From Thermodesulfobacteriota bacterium (GTDB taxonomy: Bacteria; Desulfobacterota; Desulfobacteria; Desulfobacterales; SURF-7), in the NCBI GenBank assembly GCA_049320885.1, contig JBMORA010000055.1, positions 1 through 54,861 of the forward strand: a stretch of 54,861 nucleotides of DNA, in the 5' to 3' direction. Shown here in pieces: positions 24,001 through 39,000 of the stretch. Position numbers: made by a program. Each line of letters begins with the position of its first letter. The stretch's first letter is position 1.

Positions 24001-27000
24001 CCCATGGATACAATTTGAGATTTGAGATTTGAGATCCAAAATCGGCAGTCTCAAATCTGAAATCTCAAATCTCAAATCCCAAATCCCCTCCTCCAACCAT
24101 CGGATTTACAGTTGAAATTCCAAGTCCAGGCGCTGCCGCTCTTCCTGTAGGCCATTGCCGGGTGAAAATCAACTGAAAAAGGCTCTTGACATCTTTCCGG
24201 GGTTGCGTTTATAGAAAAATCCATCAAATGATGGAAACAAAGCATGGTATATTTTTGATGGAATTCATCCCGGGGGGCCGCAGCCGTCCGGGCGGATCGG
24301 ATACCATAAGAAACGATTGTCATCATTTATTCACCGTTTAATCCAAAGGAGGGATGGATATGGCCTTGAACATGGACGCATTGGGGAAAAAAATCGGTCC
24401 TGTTTCCAAGGACTACAGCTGGAAGGATGTGGTCCTGTACGCCCTAGGCGTGGGCGCCGGATTTTCCAATCTGGAATATTGCTACGAGAAAGACCTGAAG
24501 GTCATTCCGAGCTTTTCCATTGCATCGATTTTTGAGTTTATCGCCCAGTTCGGCATTGAGTCCGGCGTGAATCTGGCCGGTATTCTGCACGGCGAACAGG
24601 AACTGATTTTCCACAACCCGATTCCCACGGAAGGGACATTGACCACCGAGGGCAAGCTGACCCATTACTATGACAAGGGCAAGAAAAAAGGCGCCCTGGT
24701 GGTGGGCGAAAGTGAAACCCGGCATTCCAACGGGAAAAAGCTGTTCACCAGCATCCTCAGTATCTTTGCCCGCCTGGACGGCGGCTTTGACGGTCCGGAT
24801 GCCCCCAAGAAAGAGGTCATTTTCCCGGATCGGGCCCCGGATTTCGTGGTGGAGGAGGCGCCCGCCGGAAACCAGCCCCTGTTGTACCGATTGTCCGGCG
24901 ATCTCTTCGCCCTGCACGCGGATCCGGACTTCGCCAAGATGGCCGGGTTTGAAATGCCGATCATGCACGGCCTTTGCACCCATGGGTATGCCTGCCGGGC
25001 CCTGATCAACAACCTCATCCCCGGCGCACCGGAAAAAGCCCGGCGCATGTATTGCCGTTTTTCCAAAACCCTGTATCCGGGAACCCCGATTCAGATTCTG
25101 ATCTGGAAAACCGGCGCGGGCAAGGCGGTCTGGCGGGTGCTCAATTCCCGGAACGGGGAAACGGTCATCGACATGGGTGAATTTGAATACGGCGATATCC
25201 CCAAGGACGAGATTCGCTTTGATGGCCGCGTGGCCATCATCACCGGTGCCGGCGCCGGTCTGGGGCGGGTATACGCGCTGGAATTGGCCAAACGCGGCGC
25301 CATGGTGGTGGTGAACGACCTGGGCGGATCCCGGGATGGCTCGGGTGGAGGGTCCTCCGCCGCGGCCGACAAGGTCGTCAAGGAGATCCAGGAGGCGGGC
25401 GGCAAGGCTGTGGCCAACTATGACAATGTGGCCACGCCGGAAGGCGGCGAGAATATCGTCAAGACGGCCCTTTCCGCATTCGGCAAGGTGGATATCCTGA
25501 TCAACAACGCGGGCATCCTGCGGGACAAGAGCTTCACCAAGATGGAACCGGAAAACTGGCAGGCCGTCATGAAGGTCCACCTGGACGGGGCCTTCCATGT
25601 CACTCGGCCGGCGTTTGCGGCCATGAAGGACAACGGCTACGGACGCATCATCATGACCACTTCCGCGGCCGGTTTGTACGGCAATTTCGGGCAGACCAAT
25701 TATTCATCCGCCAAGATGGCCCTGGTGGGATTCATGAACACCCTGAAACTGGAAGGCCAGAAATATGACATCAAGGTCAACACCATCGCCCCGGTGGCCG
25801 CTTCACGGTTGACGGAGGATATCATGCCTCCCGATCTGTTCGAAAAGATGAAACCGGAATATGTGGCGCCCATGACCATCTATCTCTGCTCCGATAAATG
25901 CCAGGCAAGCGGCAATATTTACAACGCCGGCATGGGCTTTTACAACCGGGTGGCGGTGGTGACCGGTCCCGGCGCCGTGATCAAGGGCAGCGGTGAATTT
26001 CCGACGGTGGAGGATGTGCAGAAGAACCTGGGGAATATTGCCAGTCTCAAGGGCGGCAAGGAATACTTCCAGCTGAACGACCAGGTGGGCGACGTATTCA
26101 CGGCTCTCACCGGTCCGCCTTCGGGAGCCAAGGCCGGCGCGGAAACGGCGGCTGGAACGGCCGCCAGATTCGCCAGCGCGGCGGCTGTTTTCGAGGCCAT
26201 GCCCGGCGCTTTCCGGGCCGACAAGGCCGCCGGAAAGGATGTCGTCTTTCAATACATCATTTCCGGAAGCGGGGGCGGAGAATGGATTTGCGCCATCCAG
26301 AACGGAACCTGCGACATCCGGGCCGGGAAACATGAAAAACCGGCCTGCACCCTTAAAATGAAGGATGCCGATTTTCTGGACATGATGAACGGGAAGATGA
26401 ATCCCATGCAGGCGTTCACTTCCGGTAAGCTGGCCATTGAAGGCGATGTCATGAAGTCCCAACTGATCGAGAAGGTATTCAAGCTGTAGGCCGTCGGCCG
26501 TTCGGCGCCGGTTCGTATCCGGCCGCCGGAGGATGACCGCTGATCATTAACGAAAATTGAAAAAAGAGGAGACCCGCAATGATTGGTATCACTTCTTATG
26601 GGGCATATATTCCGCGTTTACGGTTGAACCGGATGTCCATTTTCCAGAGCATGGGCTGGTTCGCACCCGCCATTATGATGGTGGCCCAGGGGGAACGATC
26701 CATGTGCAATTGGGACGAAGATTCCATCACCATGGCGGTGGCCGCGGCCCGCGATTGCATCGCCGGGATGGACAAAATCGGCCTGGACGGCCTGTACATG
26801 GCCTCCACCACCATGCCTTTCGCCGACCGCCAGAATGCCGGTGTGGTGGCCACGGCCCTGAACCTGCGTGAAGACATCGTTACTTCCGATTTCACCGCTT
26901 CCCAGAAGGCCGGCAGTACGGCCCTGCTGACGGCCCTGGAGTCCGTGAAAAGCGGAGAGCGCAACCAGATTCTGGTGGCCGCCGCCGACCGCCGGGAAAC

Positions 27001-36000: not shown

Positions 36001-39000
36001 GTGGACAAGAAAAAACTGAGATAACGGCAATTAGGAATTACGAATTAGGAATTACGAATGGCGGATGAGGGGTGATTTTTATTTCTCACTCACCAGCCAG
36101 GGGTTTCAGGAAATTGATATGCAGGATAGGCCAACGGTCATTGAATACAGTCATCAGCCGCTGAATCAGGAAATCGTCGCCATCGGCGGACGGTATATCC
36201 TGATCAAGGAGGTGCGCCTGAAAACAGCGGAACAGGAAGTGCTGTATCAGGTGGGGTGCGCCATGGTGGACAGCTCCTGCTGCGGACCAGCCGGGTGCGG
36301 CTATGCTGTGGTCCAGGGCTTTGTCCGTGACTGGCAGTACCGCCGCGATGAGCGGGGATTGCCGGTGACCCGGGTGGAGCGCATTCAGGAGCCGGCCGCG
36401 CAGGCGGAGATCGGGACTCTGATCCGCAAAAAAGAGCTGGTGACCCAGGTGAATTTTTTATAGGGGATTACATGAAAGAACCGAAAATGACAAAAAAGGG
36501 GGCTCTGGACGGTATTCTGGTGGTGGATCTGTCCCGCCTGCTGCCCGGACCGTATTGTTCGATGATTCTTGCCGATCATGGGGCGCGGGTCATCGCCATC
36601 GAGGATAAACGCTACCAGGCCGAAGGCCTTTTTCTGTCCACGGTCAACCGCAACAAGGAGCATATGTCCCTGGATCTGAAGACTCCCGAGGGCAAGGCCG
36701 TCTTTTTCCGTCTGGCGGAGAAGGCGGATGTGGTGCTGGAAGGCTTCCGGCCGGGGGTGGTGGCGCGTCTGGGAGTGGATTACGAGGCGGTCCGCCGGAT
36801 CAATCCCGGGATAATCTACTGTTCCATCACCGGATACGGCCAGACCGGACCCTACCGGGACCGGGCGGGACATGACGCCAATTACATGAGCGTGGCCGGG
36901 GTTCTGGATCTGATCGGCGAAGCGGATCGTCCGCCTTCCATACCGGGCGTCCAACTGGCGGATATCGCCGGAGGGGGCATGAACGCCGCCATCGGAGTGC
37001 TGCTGGCCCTCCACGCCCGGGAGAAGACCGGCCAGGGTCAGTATATCGACATTTCCATGACCGACGGCATGGCCGGCCTGCTGGCCGTGCCGCTGTTCTT
37101 CCGGCAGCTGACCGGACAAATTCCCGGGCGCGCCGACACCATGCTGTCCCATCGCTATGCCTGTTACAACACCTACGAAACCGCCGACGGCCGCCACATT
37201 TCCATCGGAGCGGTGGAATTGCGTTTCTGGAAGGTATTGTGCGATCACCTGGGGGTCCCCGAGTACATCCCCCTCCAGTATGACGACGCACGGCGGAAAG
37301 AGATCATCGGATTCATGCGCAAGACCTTCCGGGGCAAAACCATGGCGGAATGGGAAAGGGAGTTCGGCGATCTGGATATCTGTTTCGGTCCGGTAAAGCG
37401 TCTGGATGAGGCCATGCAGGATCCCCAGCTGCGGAGCCGGGACATGTTTCCGGAGTTGGAGTCGGCGCCGGGACGGAAAACCGACGCCATCGGCATCCCC
37501 GTCAAGCTGAGCGGGACGCCCGGAACGCTGCGGACCCCGCCGGTGCGGTTCGGCCAGAGCACGGCGAGCGTTCTGACCGAGTTCGGCTACAGCGGGGAAG
37601 AGATCGAAGACCTGACCCGCAAGGGAGTCATTTAAATTGACAACAACCTTTATTCGTAATTCGTAATTCCAAATTCCTAATTGCCGTTATGAAAACTCGT
37701 GTCACGGAATTATTCGGCATCCGCTATCCGATCCTGTTGTCCGGCATGACCGGCATCAGCAATCCCCGTCTGACGGCCGCCGTGTCCAATGCCGGCGGAC
37801 TGGGCATTCTGGCCACGGCCGACATCGTCCCGGACCGGTTGCGCCGGGCCGTTCAGGAGGTCCGGGGGCTGACCGACAAACCCTTCGGCGCCAACGTCCC
37901 CTTCCTTCTTCCCGGATCTGCGGAAAAGGCCGCCGTGCTGGTGGCAGAAAAAGTGCCGGTGATCAATTACACCCTCGGTAAAGGCCAGGGCCTGATCGAT
38001 GCCGTTCATGAATACGGCGGCCGGGTGATCGCCACTGTGACCCTGAAAAAACATGCCCTTTCAGCGGAAAAGAGCGGCGCCGACGCGGTGATCGTCACCG
38101 GGCACGAGGCCGCGGCCCATGGGGGCGAGGCCACCTCCCTGGTGCTGATACCCCATATCGCCGATGCCCTGGCCATCCCGGTGGTCGCCGCCGGCGGCTT
38201 TTCGGACGGCAGGGGGCTCGCGGCGGCGCTGGCGCTGGGTGCGGAGGGCATCGCCATGGGCACCCGCTTCATGAATACGCTGGAGAGTCCCGCGCATGCC
38301 AACATGAAGCAGATGAGCAATACAAAAGGCGTGCAGGACACCGTCTATTCGGATCGCATCGACGGTCTCCCCTGCCGCGCCCTGAAAACCAATGGGACCC
38401 GGCGCTTGATGAACCAGCGACTGTATATGATTTCAGCGCTGGTCAATTCCCGGAATGCGGCCCGGGCATTCGGATTTCCCTGGTTCAAAATGTTCCTCGG
38501 CATTTTGCTTTCCGGCTACCGGCGGTCCAGGCAGCTGGCCCGCATGGCCAATGCCTTCCAGCCCATCCAACGGGCCATCGAGACCGGGGACCTGGAGAAA
38601 GGCGTTTTCCTCATGGGGCAGGTGACGGGGAATATCCGACATACGCCCGCGGTGGCGGAACTGATGGAGACCATTATCCGGGAGGCCCTGACGGCGAGAA
38701 TGATGGTTGCGGAGAAACTGGTTTTGTGAAATACAACCATGCAGATTGAAGGCGGAAAGGAAAAGAGAGCTTCTCTTTTACAATAACAACCTGTTTACAA
38801 TTGTTCAAAACAAGAAAAGGAGAACACCATGGCACAACAAATCGCTGATCGACGGGATGTGGACTTCGTTATCTACGAGCAGCTGGAAGGGGAAAACCTG
38901 ACCAAATTCGCCCGGTATAAGGACATGAACCGTAAAATGTTCGACATGATCATCACCGAGGCGCGCAATTTCGCCATCAAGGAGATCCTGCCGGTCAACG

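What a model noticed while it worked through the whole genome (the two positions that open the first line are those of the whole stretch)
24360..38729. Peroxisome-type beta-oxidation cassette with PhlA/B-like pseudo-HMGCS-DUF35-SDR-SCP2 fusion
g04016 is a bacterial MFE-2 with swapped order (hydratase-2, (R)-dehydrogenase, SCP2); g04017 fuses an HMG-CoA-synthase-like domain lacking the catalytic Cys, DUF35, a second MFE-2-like dehydrogenase and SCP2; an archaeal-type thiolase, acyl-CoA dehydrogenases and an AMACR-like racemase follow. This D-specific, branched-chain-type beta-oxidation complex is conserved in sulfate reducers.
Evidence so far: Domains call 27; 51-53% identity to rat MFE-2, racemase 37% to human AMACR, thiolase 35% to methanogen enzyme. 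Near full-length g04017 in 28 of 101 genomes. Order g04016-g04017-thiolase in 10 of 10 loci. Cys replaced (QKAG for CKAG) here and in 4 of 5 relatives shown. Searches 68, 69: none.
(Added by a program. Inside this text positions count along the whole contig: contig position 1 is position 1 of the stretch shown here. "Call 12" and the like, gene names such as g00115 and contig names such as C1 are that model's own, and its searches are not shown. The text may have been shortened before it was handed on; [...] marks where a part breaks off. The agent that wrote the report below was given it as the finding of a first reader that could run no searches.)

Follow-up and report, generated by a model that had tools for sequence, protein, structure and literature searches.

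The report
Branched-fatty-acid breakdown operon, dead-synthase scaffold
A sulfate-reducing bacterium carries a regulated gene set that most likely breaks down methyl-branched fatty acids the way our peroxisomes do, built around an enzyme that has lost its activity and now seems to hold the others together.

Summary
Confirmed, and it extends to 42095. g04017 fuses an HMG-CoA-synthase-like domain that has lost its whole Glu-Cys-His-Asn tetrad, DUF35, an MFE-2-type NAD dehydrogenase and SCP2. g04016 is hydratase-2/dehydrogenase/SCP2, followed by an SCP2-type thiolase. The order holds in 56 of 56 evaluable loci. The dead-HMGS-DUF35/thiolase core is known (P. fluorescens, Nat Commun 2026) but has no assigned pathway, and this scan met the fusion five times before on other DNA.

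New here:
(1) A TetR-type operator, TCCATCA-NN-TGATGGA at 24220, found in 48 of 58 loci. In two families it also precedes methylmalonyl-CoA-pathway genes.
(2) 45 of 47 cassette genomes carry a methylacyl-CoA-racemase-like gene. A second racemase type fills 6 of the 8 gaps, under the same operator in 3.
(3) 12 of 13 alkylsuccinate-synthase genomes in the class sample carry the scaffold gene (the 13th shows the operon start at a contig end), as do 7 of 7 in the phylum sample.

Best reading (70%): (R)-specific beta-oxidation of 2-methyl-branched acyl-CoA, releasing propionyl-CoA. No enzyme is assayed. This genome lacks alkylsuccinate synthase, so its natural substrate is open. New variant of a known kind.

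The parts
24187..24215 (+). Promoter-like element (TTGACA ... TATAGA) just upstream of the operator
   Evidence: Read directly. In many related loci a TTGACA lies about 25-30 bp before the palindrome. Not listed by the consensus scan; function inferred.
24220..24235 (.). Palindromic operator TCCATCA-AA-TGATGGA, probable TetR binding site (consensus TGTTTCCATCAWWTGATGGAAACA)
   Evidence: Only match in the window. Within 450 bp upstream of the first gene in 48 of 58 evaluable loci, reversed control 2 of 58. Exact form in 39 of 151 class genomes, control 0; 35 of the 38 others also have the TetR ortholog.
24354..26489 (+). g04016: hydratase-2 (double hot-dog) - NAD-type SDR - SCP2, i.e. MFE-2 domains in swapped order
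   Evidence: D183, H188, G206 invariant in 67 sequences. The motif Asn is usually replaced (NP kept in 5 of 70). SDR catalytic and NAD motifs kept. SCP2 present in 51 of 63 loci.
26579..29311 (+). g04017: dead HMG-CoA-synthase-like domain (1-338), DUF35 zinc ribbon/OB (about 345-481), second MFE-2-type SDR (about 491-776), SCP2 (819-907)
   Evidence: AlphaFold2 model pLDDT 89.6, pTM 0.74. Foldseek: archaeal HMGCS 6esq and PhlA at target TM about 0.9; MFE-2 dehydrogenase. SDR fused in 78 of 78 loci, SCP2 in 44 of 69.
29324..30532 (+). SCP2-type thiolase (PRK06157 family) with C88 (NYCATG), HDCF, GHP, HNLGG
   Evidence: HDCF in 65 of 65 orthologs. Predicted to dock on DUF35 residues 344-475: score 0.73, best control 0.00.
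30606..31748 (+). Acyl-CoA dehydrogenase 1 (QQERL/IFAGTNE type), paralog of 33117 (63% identical)
31942..33090 (+). Degenerate acyl-CoA dehydrogenase, probably the non-catalytic partner subunit of the next gene
   Evidence: No Glu at either catalytic position and a variable FAD motif in 14 orthologs (catalytic positions recalled). Directly upstream of an active-type dehydrogenase in the loci. The pair keeps the operator when detached from the cassette (L138-L140, L142).
33117..34259 (+). Acyl-CoA dehydrogenase 3 (active type)
   Evidence: A dehydrogenase of this type or the long type is in 28 of 33 full loci.
34330..36024 (+). Long-chain acyl-CoA ligase (accessory)
   Evidence: Start taken at the ATG behind a ribosome-binding site. 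In 2 of 33 full loci.
36065..36463 (+). 132-aa Cys-containing ORF, no family (accessory)
   Evidence: No Pfam or NCBIfam hit; no usable Atlas hit. Homologs in 3 loci.
36472..37635 (+). Family III CoA-transferase fold with racemase-type His134 (GHDANY) and Asp164: alpha-methylacyl-CoA racemase-like
   Evidence: Best solved match Mtb MCR, 218 bits vs 194 for the best CoA-transferase. GHDxNY in 29 of 29 orthologs. In 19 of 33 full loci.
37689..38729 (+). NMO/FabK-family flavoprotein (accessory)
   Evidence: below the FabK cut-off. In 1 of 33 full loci.
38829..40682 (+). Long (617 aa) acyl-CoA dehydrogenase 4
   Evidence: Follows the thiolase directly in several loci that lack the short type.
40701..41411 (+). 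Metallophosphoesterase that recurs beside the cassette
   Evidence: Homologs near the cassette in several loci, including unfused ones.
41445..42095 (+). TetR-family regulator, probable repressor of the operon
   Evidence: Usually the first gene of the operon in relatives, in 26 of 33 full loci. Ortholog in 44 of 47 cassette genomes and 6 of 103 others.

Best explanation
A TetR-repressed operon for beta-oxidation of 2-methyl-branched acyl-CoA esters through (3R)-hydroxy intermediates, working like the peroxisomal AMACR / MFE-2 / SCPx route, beside the ordinary (S)-specific system the cell also has. Steps:
(1) The racemase turns (2R)- into (2S)-methylacyl-CoA [catalytic residues shown; activity inferred].
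(2) The dehydrogenases, one probably a heteromer with the dead 31942 subunit, make 2-methyl-2-enoyl-CoA [inferred].
(3) The hydratase-2 domain adds water [catalytic triad shown; stereochemistry inferred from family].
(4) The NAD-type SDR domains oxidise the product [motifs shown; why two are kept is unexplained].
(5) The thiolase, docked on the DUF35 domain of g04017, cleaves 2-methyl-3-oxoacyl-CoA to propionyl-CoA and a shorter acyl-CoA [docking predicted and known for homologs; substrate inferred].
The HMG-CoA-synthase-like domain is a dead structural subunit [loss of the tetrad shown]. Fusing the dehydrogenase to it places the enzyme that makes the 3-oxoacyl-CoA next to the thiolase that consumes it [inferred]. 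SCP2 domains bind long acyl chains and are dispensable. Propionyl-CoA leaves through the methylmalonyl-CoA pathway. In alkane degraders the substrate is probably 2-methylalkanoyl-CoA; in genomes like this one, some other methyl-branched lipid.
For: Domain set and intact catalytic motifs. Order in 56 of 56 loci. Thiolase-scaffold model 0.73 vs best control 0.00; runs share at least 97% of contacts; partner pLDDT at least 92. That mark was reached by 116 of 157 solved and 2 of 215 mismatched pairs, and like complexes are solved, so this shows likeness, not binding. The homologous P. fluorescens complex cleaves acetoacetyl-CoA and makes no HMG-CoA (PMC12960953).

Operator away from the cassette: upstream of mdh in G254 and G270, of sdhCAB in G254, of the mce-carboxylase-sucCD operon in G254 and G270; upstream of an aminotransferase gene in five genomes of family f93, followed by mce and/or mcm in the three where that stretch was annotated; upstream of the detached dehydrogenase pair in four genomes; upstream of a second-type racemase in three.

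Racemase: cassette type in 39 of 47 cassette genomes vs 22 of 103 others. The second type (only 35-36% identical to it; Mtb MCR E 1e-119) occurs in 8 of 151 genomes, six of them among the eight cassette genomes lacking the first type, none among the 39 that have it.

Alkylsuccinate synthase (query matches MasD 9o8u): 13 of 151 class genomes, 12 with the scaffold gene and the 13th with TetR, operator and g04016 start at a contig end. 7 of 251 phylum genomes, all within the 26 of 250 with the close scaffold clade; in G226 the pair lies 2.9 kb from the synthase gene. That pathway passes through 2-methylalkanoyl-CoA and releases propionyl-CoA (PMC7028053). In peroxisomes AMACR, MFE-2 and SCPx handle 2-methyl-branched chains (PMC4729952).
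Against: No assay, expression or knockout data. This genome has no alkylsuccinate synthase, and its own mce, mcm, carboxylase, sdh and mdh upstream regions have no operator; 35 of 47 cassette genomes lack the synthase. The link to methylmalonyl-CoA genes is seen in only two families, and odd-chain fatty acids also give propionyl-CoA. Kin are not independent, so the co-occurrence counts overstate. TetR binding to the palindrome is not shown, and some sites precede unrelated or unclear genes (idh, rrmJ, L136, L147, L148). The racemase's margin over CoA-transferases is modest (218 vs 194 bits). The hydratase motif lacks its usual Asn in 65 of 70. Two synthase genomes with the unfused scaffold (G313, G226) gave no hit to the double-hot-dog hydratase. 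HxN1 cultures held both diastereomers of 3-hydroxy-2-methylhexanoate, which does not favour a single (R) route. Two cassette genomes (G297, G299) have neither racemase by these queries.
Confidence: 0.7

Rival explanations
1. A second, general (R)-specific beta-oxidation system for long, odd-chain, unsaturated or otherwise bulky straight-chain acyl-CoA. The family III protein is a CoA-transferase, and propionyl-CoA comes from odd chains.
For: MFE-2 and SCPx also handle very-long straight chains. SCP2 domains and the long-chain ligase fit. Unfused relatives sit in very varied catabolic clusters. One operator site precedes a FadJ-like fragment and thiolase remnant, another a classical thiolase-like ORF.
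Against: The genome already has five (S)-3-hydroxyacyl-CoA dehydrogenase loci and several classical thiolases. It does not explain why two different racemase types substitute for each other, one of them under the same operator.
Confidence: 0.13
2. The branched substrate is specifically a sterol or bile-acid side chain, or a ring-cleavage product, as for MFE-2/SCPx/AMACR in bile-acid synthesis and for the dead-HMGS/thiolase/SDR/MaoC genes of oestrogen clusters.
For: A 34%-identical scaffold homolog sits with SDR, MaoC and thiolase in the Novosphingobium ES2-1 cluster, matching the edc cluster whose 'HMG-CoA synthase' was left unassigned (PMC7793797). A dead dehydrogenase subunit recalls heteromeric steroid acyl-CoA dehydrogenases (PMC6678751 passage).
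Against: No steroid-ring genes were seen in the fused loci or among operator-linked genes (the loci were compared only with the window's own genes, and steroid markers were not searched genome-wide). The alkane-synthase link points to aliphatic chains.
Confidence: 0.1
3. An ACP-independent synthase running the other way, like the Sulfolobus KT/DUF35/ketoreductase/MaoC complex, possibly building methyl-branched chains from propionyl-CoA.
For: The same four activities form a DUF35-mediated synthase complex in S. acidocaldarius (bioRxiv 2024.07.05.601840). A FabK-like gene is in this operon.
Against: Both SDRs have the Asp of NAD-type enzymes (119 of 119 and 69 of 69; rule recalled), whereas the archaeal reductase is strictly NADPH-specific. 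The FabK-like gene is in 1 of 33 loci and acyl-CoA dehydrogenases in 28 of 33. The P. fluorescens homolog only cleaves. The genome has several ketoacyl synthases.
Confidence: 0.05

Closest known systems
P. fluorescens ACAT / fused HMGS-DUF35 complex (PMC12960953, Nat Commun 2026; section 10 read in full)
   Same: HMGS-like domain without the E-C-H-N tetrad fused to DUF35; adjacent thiolase that keeps the catalytic Cys, HDxF and GHx; no PKS/NRPS neighbours.
   Different: Here the scaffold is further fused to a 3-hydroxyacyl-CoA dehydrogenase and SCP2, inside a full beta-oxidation operon with racemase and regulator. The paper left 1,001 of 1,030 such loci without a pathway and called its example an evolutionary intermediate.
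Peroxisomal branched-chain beta-oxidation: AMACR, MFE-2 (HSD17B4), SCPx (PMC4729952, passages)
   Same: Same enzyme families: hydratase 2, MFE-2-type SDR (about 52% identity), SCP2 domains, SCP2-type thiolase, methylacyl-CoA racemase.
   Different: Domains are re-partitioned (hydratase before dehydrogenase; a second dehydrogenase on the scaffold; thiolase without its own SCP2); dehydrogenases instead of oxidases; a DUF35/dead-HMGS scaffold that the peroxisomal system is not known (recalled) to have; motif Asn replaced.
Archaeal thiolase/HMGCS/DUF35 complex (PDB 6ESQ) and PhlABC / MucABC acyltransferases (5M3K, 9SKH, 9VBO)
   Same: Same three-part architecture; target TM 0.86-0.91 for the HMGS-like domain.
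   Different: HMGCS is dead here, unlike 6ESQ. The thiolase keeps HDCF, unlike PhlC and MucB, so Friedel-Crafts acylation is not expected.
S. acidocaldarius fatty acid synthase complex KT/DUF35/ACR/MaoC (bioRxiv 10.1101/2024.07.05.601840; parts 1-3 of 9 read)
   Same: DUF35-mediated assembly of thiolase, (R)-specific SDR and MaoC-type hydratase on CoA esters.
   Different: That complex is NADPH-specific and anabolic and has no HMGS-like subunit. Here the fingerprint is NAD-type and acyl-CoA dehydrogenases are present.
Oestrogen-degradation edc/oec clusters of sphingomonads (PMC7793797 and PMC6678751, passages)
   Same: Unfused 'HMG-CoA synthase', thiolase, short-chain dehydrogenase, MaoC and acyl-CoA dehydrogenase in a catabolic operon.
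   Different: Distant subfamily (34%), unfused, aerobic steroid ring substrate; the synthase-like gene was unassigned there.

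Membership tests
Active HMG-CoA synthase (archaeal type) | Glu-Cys-His-Asn catalytic tetrad | tested here: not met
   T/Q/P/E here; Cys in 0 of 119 fused homologs.
Active HMG-CoA synthase (archaeal type) | NCBIfam curated cut-off | tested here: not met
   NF003274 194 < 244; TIGR00748 135 < 353.
Bacterial ACAT / dead HMGS-DUF35 complex (P. fluorescens type) | Fused HMGS-DUF35 without the tetrad | tested here: met
   both zinc-ribbon Cys pairs kept.
Bacterial ACAT / dead HMGS-DUF35 complex (P. fluorescens type) | Adjacent thiolase with catalytic Cys, HDxF, GHx | tested here: met
   Cys motif and HDCF in 65 of 65, GHP in 64 of 65 (one truncated); downstream in 69 of 69 loci.
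Bacterial ACAT / dead HMGS-DUF35 complex (P. fluorescens type) | Physical complex | tested here: inconclusive
   Model supports it (0.73 vs 0.00) but may pass by likeness to solved complexes.
Bacterial ACAT / dead HMGS-DUF35 complex (P. fluorescens type) | Thiolytic cleavage without HMG-CoA formation | not testable with these tools
   Needs an assay.
PhlABC / MucABC Friedel-Crafts acyltransferases | Thiolase subunit has lost HDxF | tested here: not met
   HDCF kept in 65 of 65 (criterion).
PhlABC / MucABC Friedel-Crafts acyltransferases | Neighbouring PKS or NRPS | tested here: not met
   None among the 16 window genes scanned in and around the cassette.
MFE-2 (D-bifunctional protein), for g04016 | Hydratase-2 domain with catalytic Asp, His, Gly | tested here: met
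   D183/H188/G206 invariant, same spacing as the triad in PMC3823801.
MFE-2 (D-bifunctional protein), for g04016 | Full hydratase-2 motif including Asn | tested here: not met
   GDLFALH here; NP in 5 of 70.
MFE-2 (D-bifunctional protein), for g04016 | MFE-2-type SDR with Ser-Tyr-Lys and NAD-type Asp | tested here: met
MFE-2 (D-bifunctional protein), for g04016 | Order dehydrogenase-hydratase-SCP2 (recalled) | tested here: not met
   Hydratase comes first. Works like MFE-2; not filed as a member.
MFE-2 (D-bifunctional protein), for g04016 | (3R) stereospecificity | not testable with these tools
   Inferred from family only.
Alpha-methylacyl-CoA racemase | His in GHDxNY and second Asp in place (role recalled) | tested here: met
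   Aligned to Mtb MCR; 29 of 29 orthologs.
Alpha-methylacyl-CoA racemase | Closer to racemases than to family III CoA-transferases | tested here: inconclusive
   218 vs 194 bits for the window gene; clear for the substituting type, 403 vs 144.
Alpha-methylacyl-CoA racemase | C2 epimerisation activity | not testable with these tools
   Needs an assay.
Archaeal-type CoA-dependent fatty acid synthase complex | Thiolase + DUF35 + SDR + MaoC-type hydratase | tested here: met
Archaeal-type CoA-dependent fatty acid synthase complex | NADPH-type ketoreductase | tested here: not met
   NAD-type Asp in all orthologs; sequence rule only.
Archaeal-type CoA-dependent fatty acid synthase complex | Conserved enoyl-CoA reductase | tested here: not met
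   FabK-like gene in 1 of 33 loci.

The most novel reading that the evidence does not exclude
This is the dedicated machinery for the 2-methylalkanoyl-CoA round of anaerobic alkane and branched-lipid degradation in Desulfobacterota: a thiolase-dehydrogenase complex on a dead HMG-CoA-synthase/DUF35 scaffold, a bacterial counterpart of the peroxisomal AMACR/MFE-2/SCPx route. Its TetR also switches on the methylmalonyl-CoA-to-fumarate pathway, which regenerates the co-substrate of alkane activation. It would give the first physiological pathway for a clade of the roughly 1,000 orphan bacterial HMGS/ACAT/DUF35 loci.
Probability: 0.4. Interest if true: 0.85.

Novelty: new variant of a known kind. 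Interest (0 to 1): 0.7.

Why it matters
The dead-HMGS/DUF35/thiolase complex was described in 2026 with no pathway for 1,001 of 1,030 loci. This fusion, its operon and its operator supply a concrete, testable pathway for one large clade. Fumarate-addition alkane degradation must cleave 2-methyl-branched intermediates, and no paper that my searches returned assigns enzymes to that round; this names candidates, a regulator and a binding site in cultured species (Desulfosarcina alkanivorans DSCA_37480, D. widdelii DSCW_58200). The cassette is in about a third of the sampled class, so it may mark methyl-branched lipid turnover in anoxic sediments. It is also a clean case of a pseudo-enzyme kept as a scaffold and of peroxisome-like chemistry in strict anaerobes.

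Tried and rejected
RNA evidence: no RNA holder was listed; this is no evidence either way.

Published expression data: the D. multivorans proteome paper (PMC5109826; passages and its one text supplement) has no DUF35, MaoC or HMG entries. A second homolog search meant to find named orthologs in other cultured alkane degraders listed none new.

Gene conversion between the two SDR domains: rejected. The two copies fall apart in the tree; own paralogs are sisters in 1 of 66 loci; within-locus identity 77% equals ortholog identity 75-77% (printed tree partly cut, no support values read).

Alkane activation in this genome: rejected. None of six glycyl radical enzymes has the synthase motif or a hit.

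Presence of methylmalonyl-CoA mutase as support: uninformative, 120 of 151 genomes; only the operator link counts. One-mismatch operator counts genome-wide are noisy (120 of 151 genomes); only exact or position-filtered counts are used. Weak matrix hits in this genome preceded nothing relevant.

Rhodococcus aedF/aedK knockouts (PMC8913865, passages) concern FadA5- and Ltp2-like genes, not this module. The Smithellaceae paper (PMC13685792, passages) does not mention it. PMC6776118 (passages) reports the racemase missing from alkane-degrading Smithella and JS1 genomes, which cautions against calling it universal.

Literature searches. None described the four-domain fusion, the operator or the alkane link; the library lacks most subscription papers, including genome and transcriptome papers on D. 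alkenivorans that I recall. Supplements of PMC12960953 (list of 1,030 loci) and of the bioRxiv preprint were not seen and may include this clade. The Atlas search for the 132-aa ORF gave nothing. Binding of g04016 to the complex was not modelled.

Full report
Observation. g04016 is hydratase-2, SDR, SCP2. g04017 is an HMG-CoA-synthase-like domain, DUF35, SDR, SCP2. A PRK06157 thiolase, three short acyl-CoA dehydrogenase genes, a CoA ligase, a small ORF, a racemase-like gene and an NMO-family gene follow. The run continues on the same strand, with gaps of 18-99 bp, through a long acyl-CoA dehydrogenase, a metallophosphoesterase and a TetR to 42095. Base composition shows no clear island. Relatives are mostly Desulfobacterales; named ones include Desulfosarcina alkanivorans, D. 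widdelii and Ca. Magnetomorum. The 119 best other homologs are 67-89% identical over 98-100% of the length.

The synthase domain is dead. Against the methanogen enzyme all four tetrad residues are replaced, and the replacements are fixed in 119 fused homologs. In 120 stand-alone representatives of 440-520 aa, Cys is not among the eight commonest residues at the Cys position. The fold is intact: the model has pLDDT 89.6 and matches archaeal HMGCS, PhlA and MucA at target TM 0.86-0.91. A pTM of 0.74 over 910 residues hints that the SDR has a defined position against the scaffold; that is my inference, and I could not inspect the model's error matrix. The thiolase is predicted to dock on DUF35 residues 344-475: score 0.73, best control 0.00, contacts at least 97% shared between runs, partner pLDDT at least 92; the mark was reached by 116 of 157 solved and 2 of 215 mismatched pairs. 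Like complexes are solved, so this shows likeness rather than binding.

The other enzymes look active. The thiolase keeps Cys88, HDCF, GHP and HNLGG. Both SDRs keep Ser-Tyr-Lys and the Asp typical of NAD enzymes. The hydratase keeps Asp183, His188 and Gly206, but the motif Asn is kept in only 5 of 70. The exception is the dehydrogenase at 31942, whose 14 orthologs lack Glu at both catalytic positions and have a variable FAD motif. It sits in front of an active-type gene and is probably a partner subunit. The two SDR copies separate in the tree, apart from one Anaerolineales locus, so both have long been kept; why is unexplained.

Conservation. Of 80 loci, the order g04016, g04017, thiolase holds in 56 of 56 testable. 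In the 33 full-length loci there is an active-type dehydrogenase in 28, TetR in 26, racemase in 19, dead dehydrogenase in 10, ligase in 2 and NMO gene in 1. SCP2 is often lost (kept in 44 of 69 and 51 of 63). In whole genomes the close N-terminal half is in 48 of 151 class genomes, one copy each. The stand-alone dead-HMGS-DUF35 family is wide: 86 of 251 phylum genomes, 621 clusters at E<=1e-30, 34 plasmids. I opened 10 of those plasmid hits. Sphingomonas, Variovorax paradoxus and Diaphorobacter have SDR, MaoC, scaffold and thiolase as neighbouring separate genes; others have different partners. Three unfused loci of family f47 read racemase-like (GHDINY), scaffold, thiolase, small MaoC-like genes, MFE-2-type SDR. 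The fusion therefore joins genes that are often neighbours elsewhere.

A regulatory site gives the best clue to substrate. Upstream of g04016 is TTGACA, then TATAGA, then the palindrome TCCATCAAATGATGGA at 24220. It recurs within 450 bp of the first gene in 48 of 58 loci, against 2 of 58 for the reversed pattern. The exact form is in 39 of 151 class genomes with no control hit. 35 of the 38 other genomes with it have the TetR ortholog, which is in 44 of 47 cassette genomes and 6 of 103 others. I fetched most exact sites that were not beside g04017, plus some one-mismatch sites. In genus g2 they precede malate dehydrogenase (G254, G270), succinate dehydrogenase (G254) and the epimerase-carboxylase-succinyl-CoA-ligase operon (G254, G270). 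In five genomes of family f93 they precede an aminotransferase gene; mce and mutase follow in G334 and G256, mutase in G348, while G347 ends at a contig edge and G366 was seen only to the aminotransferase. In four genomes they precede the detached dead/active dehydrogenase pair. In three they precede a second kind of methylacyl-CoA racemase (G036 by coordinates). Two were the cassette itself at contig ends (L126, L149), and L135 lies beside a g04016-like fragment. Others precede isocitrate dehydrogenase, a FadJ-like fragment, a thiolase-like ORF, or nothing clear (L127, L128, L136, L147, L148). In this genome the only other strong site overlaps the start of a 2-hydroxyacyl-CoA-dehydratase-like gene pair, and its own methylmalonyl-CoA genes have no site.

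The racemase is close to obligatory. The cassette type is in 39 of 47 cassette genomes and 22 of 103 others. The second type, 35-36% identical to it and much closer to the Mtb enzyme, is in 8 of 151 genomes: six of the eight cassette genomes that lack the first type, none of the 39 that have it, and two others. So 45 of 47 have one or the other, against 24 of 103. A replacement of this sort is what a needed chemical step predicts. Kinship inflates the counts.

Link to alkanes. With an alkylsuccinate synthase query, 13 of 151 class genomes match. Twelve carry the scaffold gene (G313 unfused), and G303 shows TetR, operator and g04016 start at a contig end. In the phylum sample all 7 matches fall among the 26 of 250 genomes with the close scaffold clade (G036 is in both samples), and in G226 the pair lies 2.9 kb from a synthase gene. 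Of five such genomes with the unfused scaffold, all have an MFE-2-type SDR and three the double-hot-dog hydratase. [quoted passage not shown] But 35 of 47 cassette genomes, this one included, lack the synthase, so the cassette has a wider role; phytol-derived, other isoprenoid or bacterial methyl-branched acids are candidates from general knowledge only.

Mechanism and rivals. The best reading (0.7) is (R)-specific beta-oxidation of 2-methyl-branched acyl-CoA with propionyl-CoA release, like peroxisomal AMACR, MFE-2 and SCPx (PMC4729952, passages), in parallel with the genome's ordinary (S)-system. Rivals are a general system for long or odd chains (0.13), a steroid-specific role (0.10) and synthesis as in the archaeal complex (0.05). 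Shown: domain content, lost and kept residues, conservation, the palindrome and what lies behind it, co-occurrence. Inferred: every activity, the complex, channelling, TetR binding and the substrate.

What is known. PMC12960953 (section 10 read) characterised a fused dead HMGS-DUF35 with an HDxF thiolase that only cleaves, and left 1,001 of 1,030 loci without a pathway. The archaeal synthase preprint (parts 1-3 of 9 read) shows DUF35 assembling thiolase, SDR and MaoC. Oestrogen clusters hold an unassigned 'HMG-CoA synthase'. Ten paper searches found no description of the four-domain fusion, the operator or the alkane link; the library is limited to open papers, and supplements of the two key papers were not seen.

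Verdict: real, a new variant of a known kind, interest 0.7. The fusion alone would rank lower. The operator, the racemase substitution and the alkane link turn it into a directly testable pathway.

Noticed in passing
window 24013-24085, 31756-31925, 34267-34298, 36029-36059, 37652-37682: Short arrays of 7-bp repeats (ATTTGAG/TCTCAAA; AATTACG/AATTAGG/ATTCCTA) fill intergenic gaps, twice as inverted pairs that could form hairpins.
   Followed up: no
G000:C1:114333 (L119:8334): The only other perfect operator in this genome overlaps the start codon of a two-gene 2-hydroxyacyl-CoA-dehydratase / benzoyl-CoA-reductase-like pair. It may be a regulon member or chance; no such site was listed for the same-genus genome with the stricter pattern.
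   Followed up: partly
G000:C67 about 5000-21000: A second lipid-catabolic cluster: three tandem SCP2 matches in one frame, a DUF35 gene, distant thiolase-like genes, acyl-CoA dehydrogenases and a ligase. Resembles side-chain aldolase-type clusters (recalled).
   Followed up: no
G000 C9, C17, C25, C28, C46, C53 (L113-L118): Six glycyl radical enzymes, none fumarate-adding. One scores just under the sulfopropanediol dehydratase cut-off (992 of 1000); the others have no specific family.
   Followed up: partly
window 36065-36463: 132-aa ORF with a CCGPAGCG stretch, no family and no Atlas relative, found in three related loci between ligase and racemase.
   Followed up: partly
window 40701-41411: A calcineurin-like metallophosphoesterase recurs near both fused and unfused versions of the cassette; role unknown.
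   Followed up: no
L093 (G226:C179) 7887-15951: Unfused scaffold and thiolase genes lie 2.9 kb from an alkylsuccinate synthase gene, with two ORFs between.
   Followed up: partly
G000:C43 5417-14347: Long ketosynthase-containing frames (1454 and 2435 aa), a type I PKS or PUFA-synthase-like locus.
   Followed up: no
L075: An Anaerolineales MAG carries the fused cassette (58-76% identity), and its two SDR domains are each other's closest relatives.
   Followed up: no
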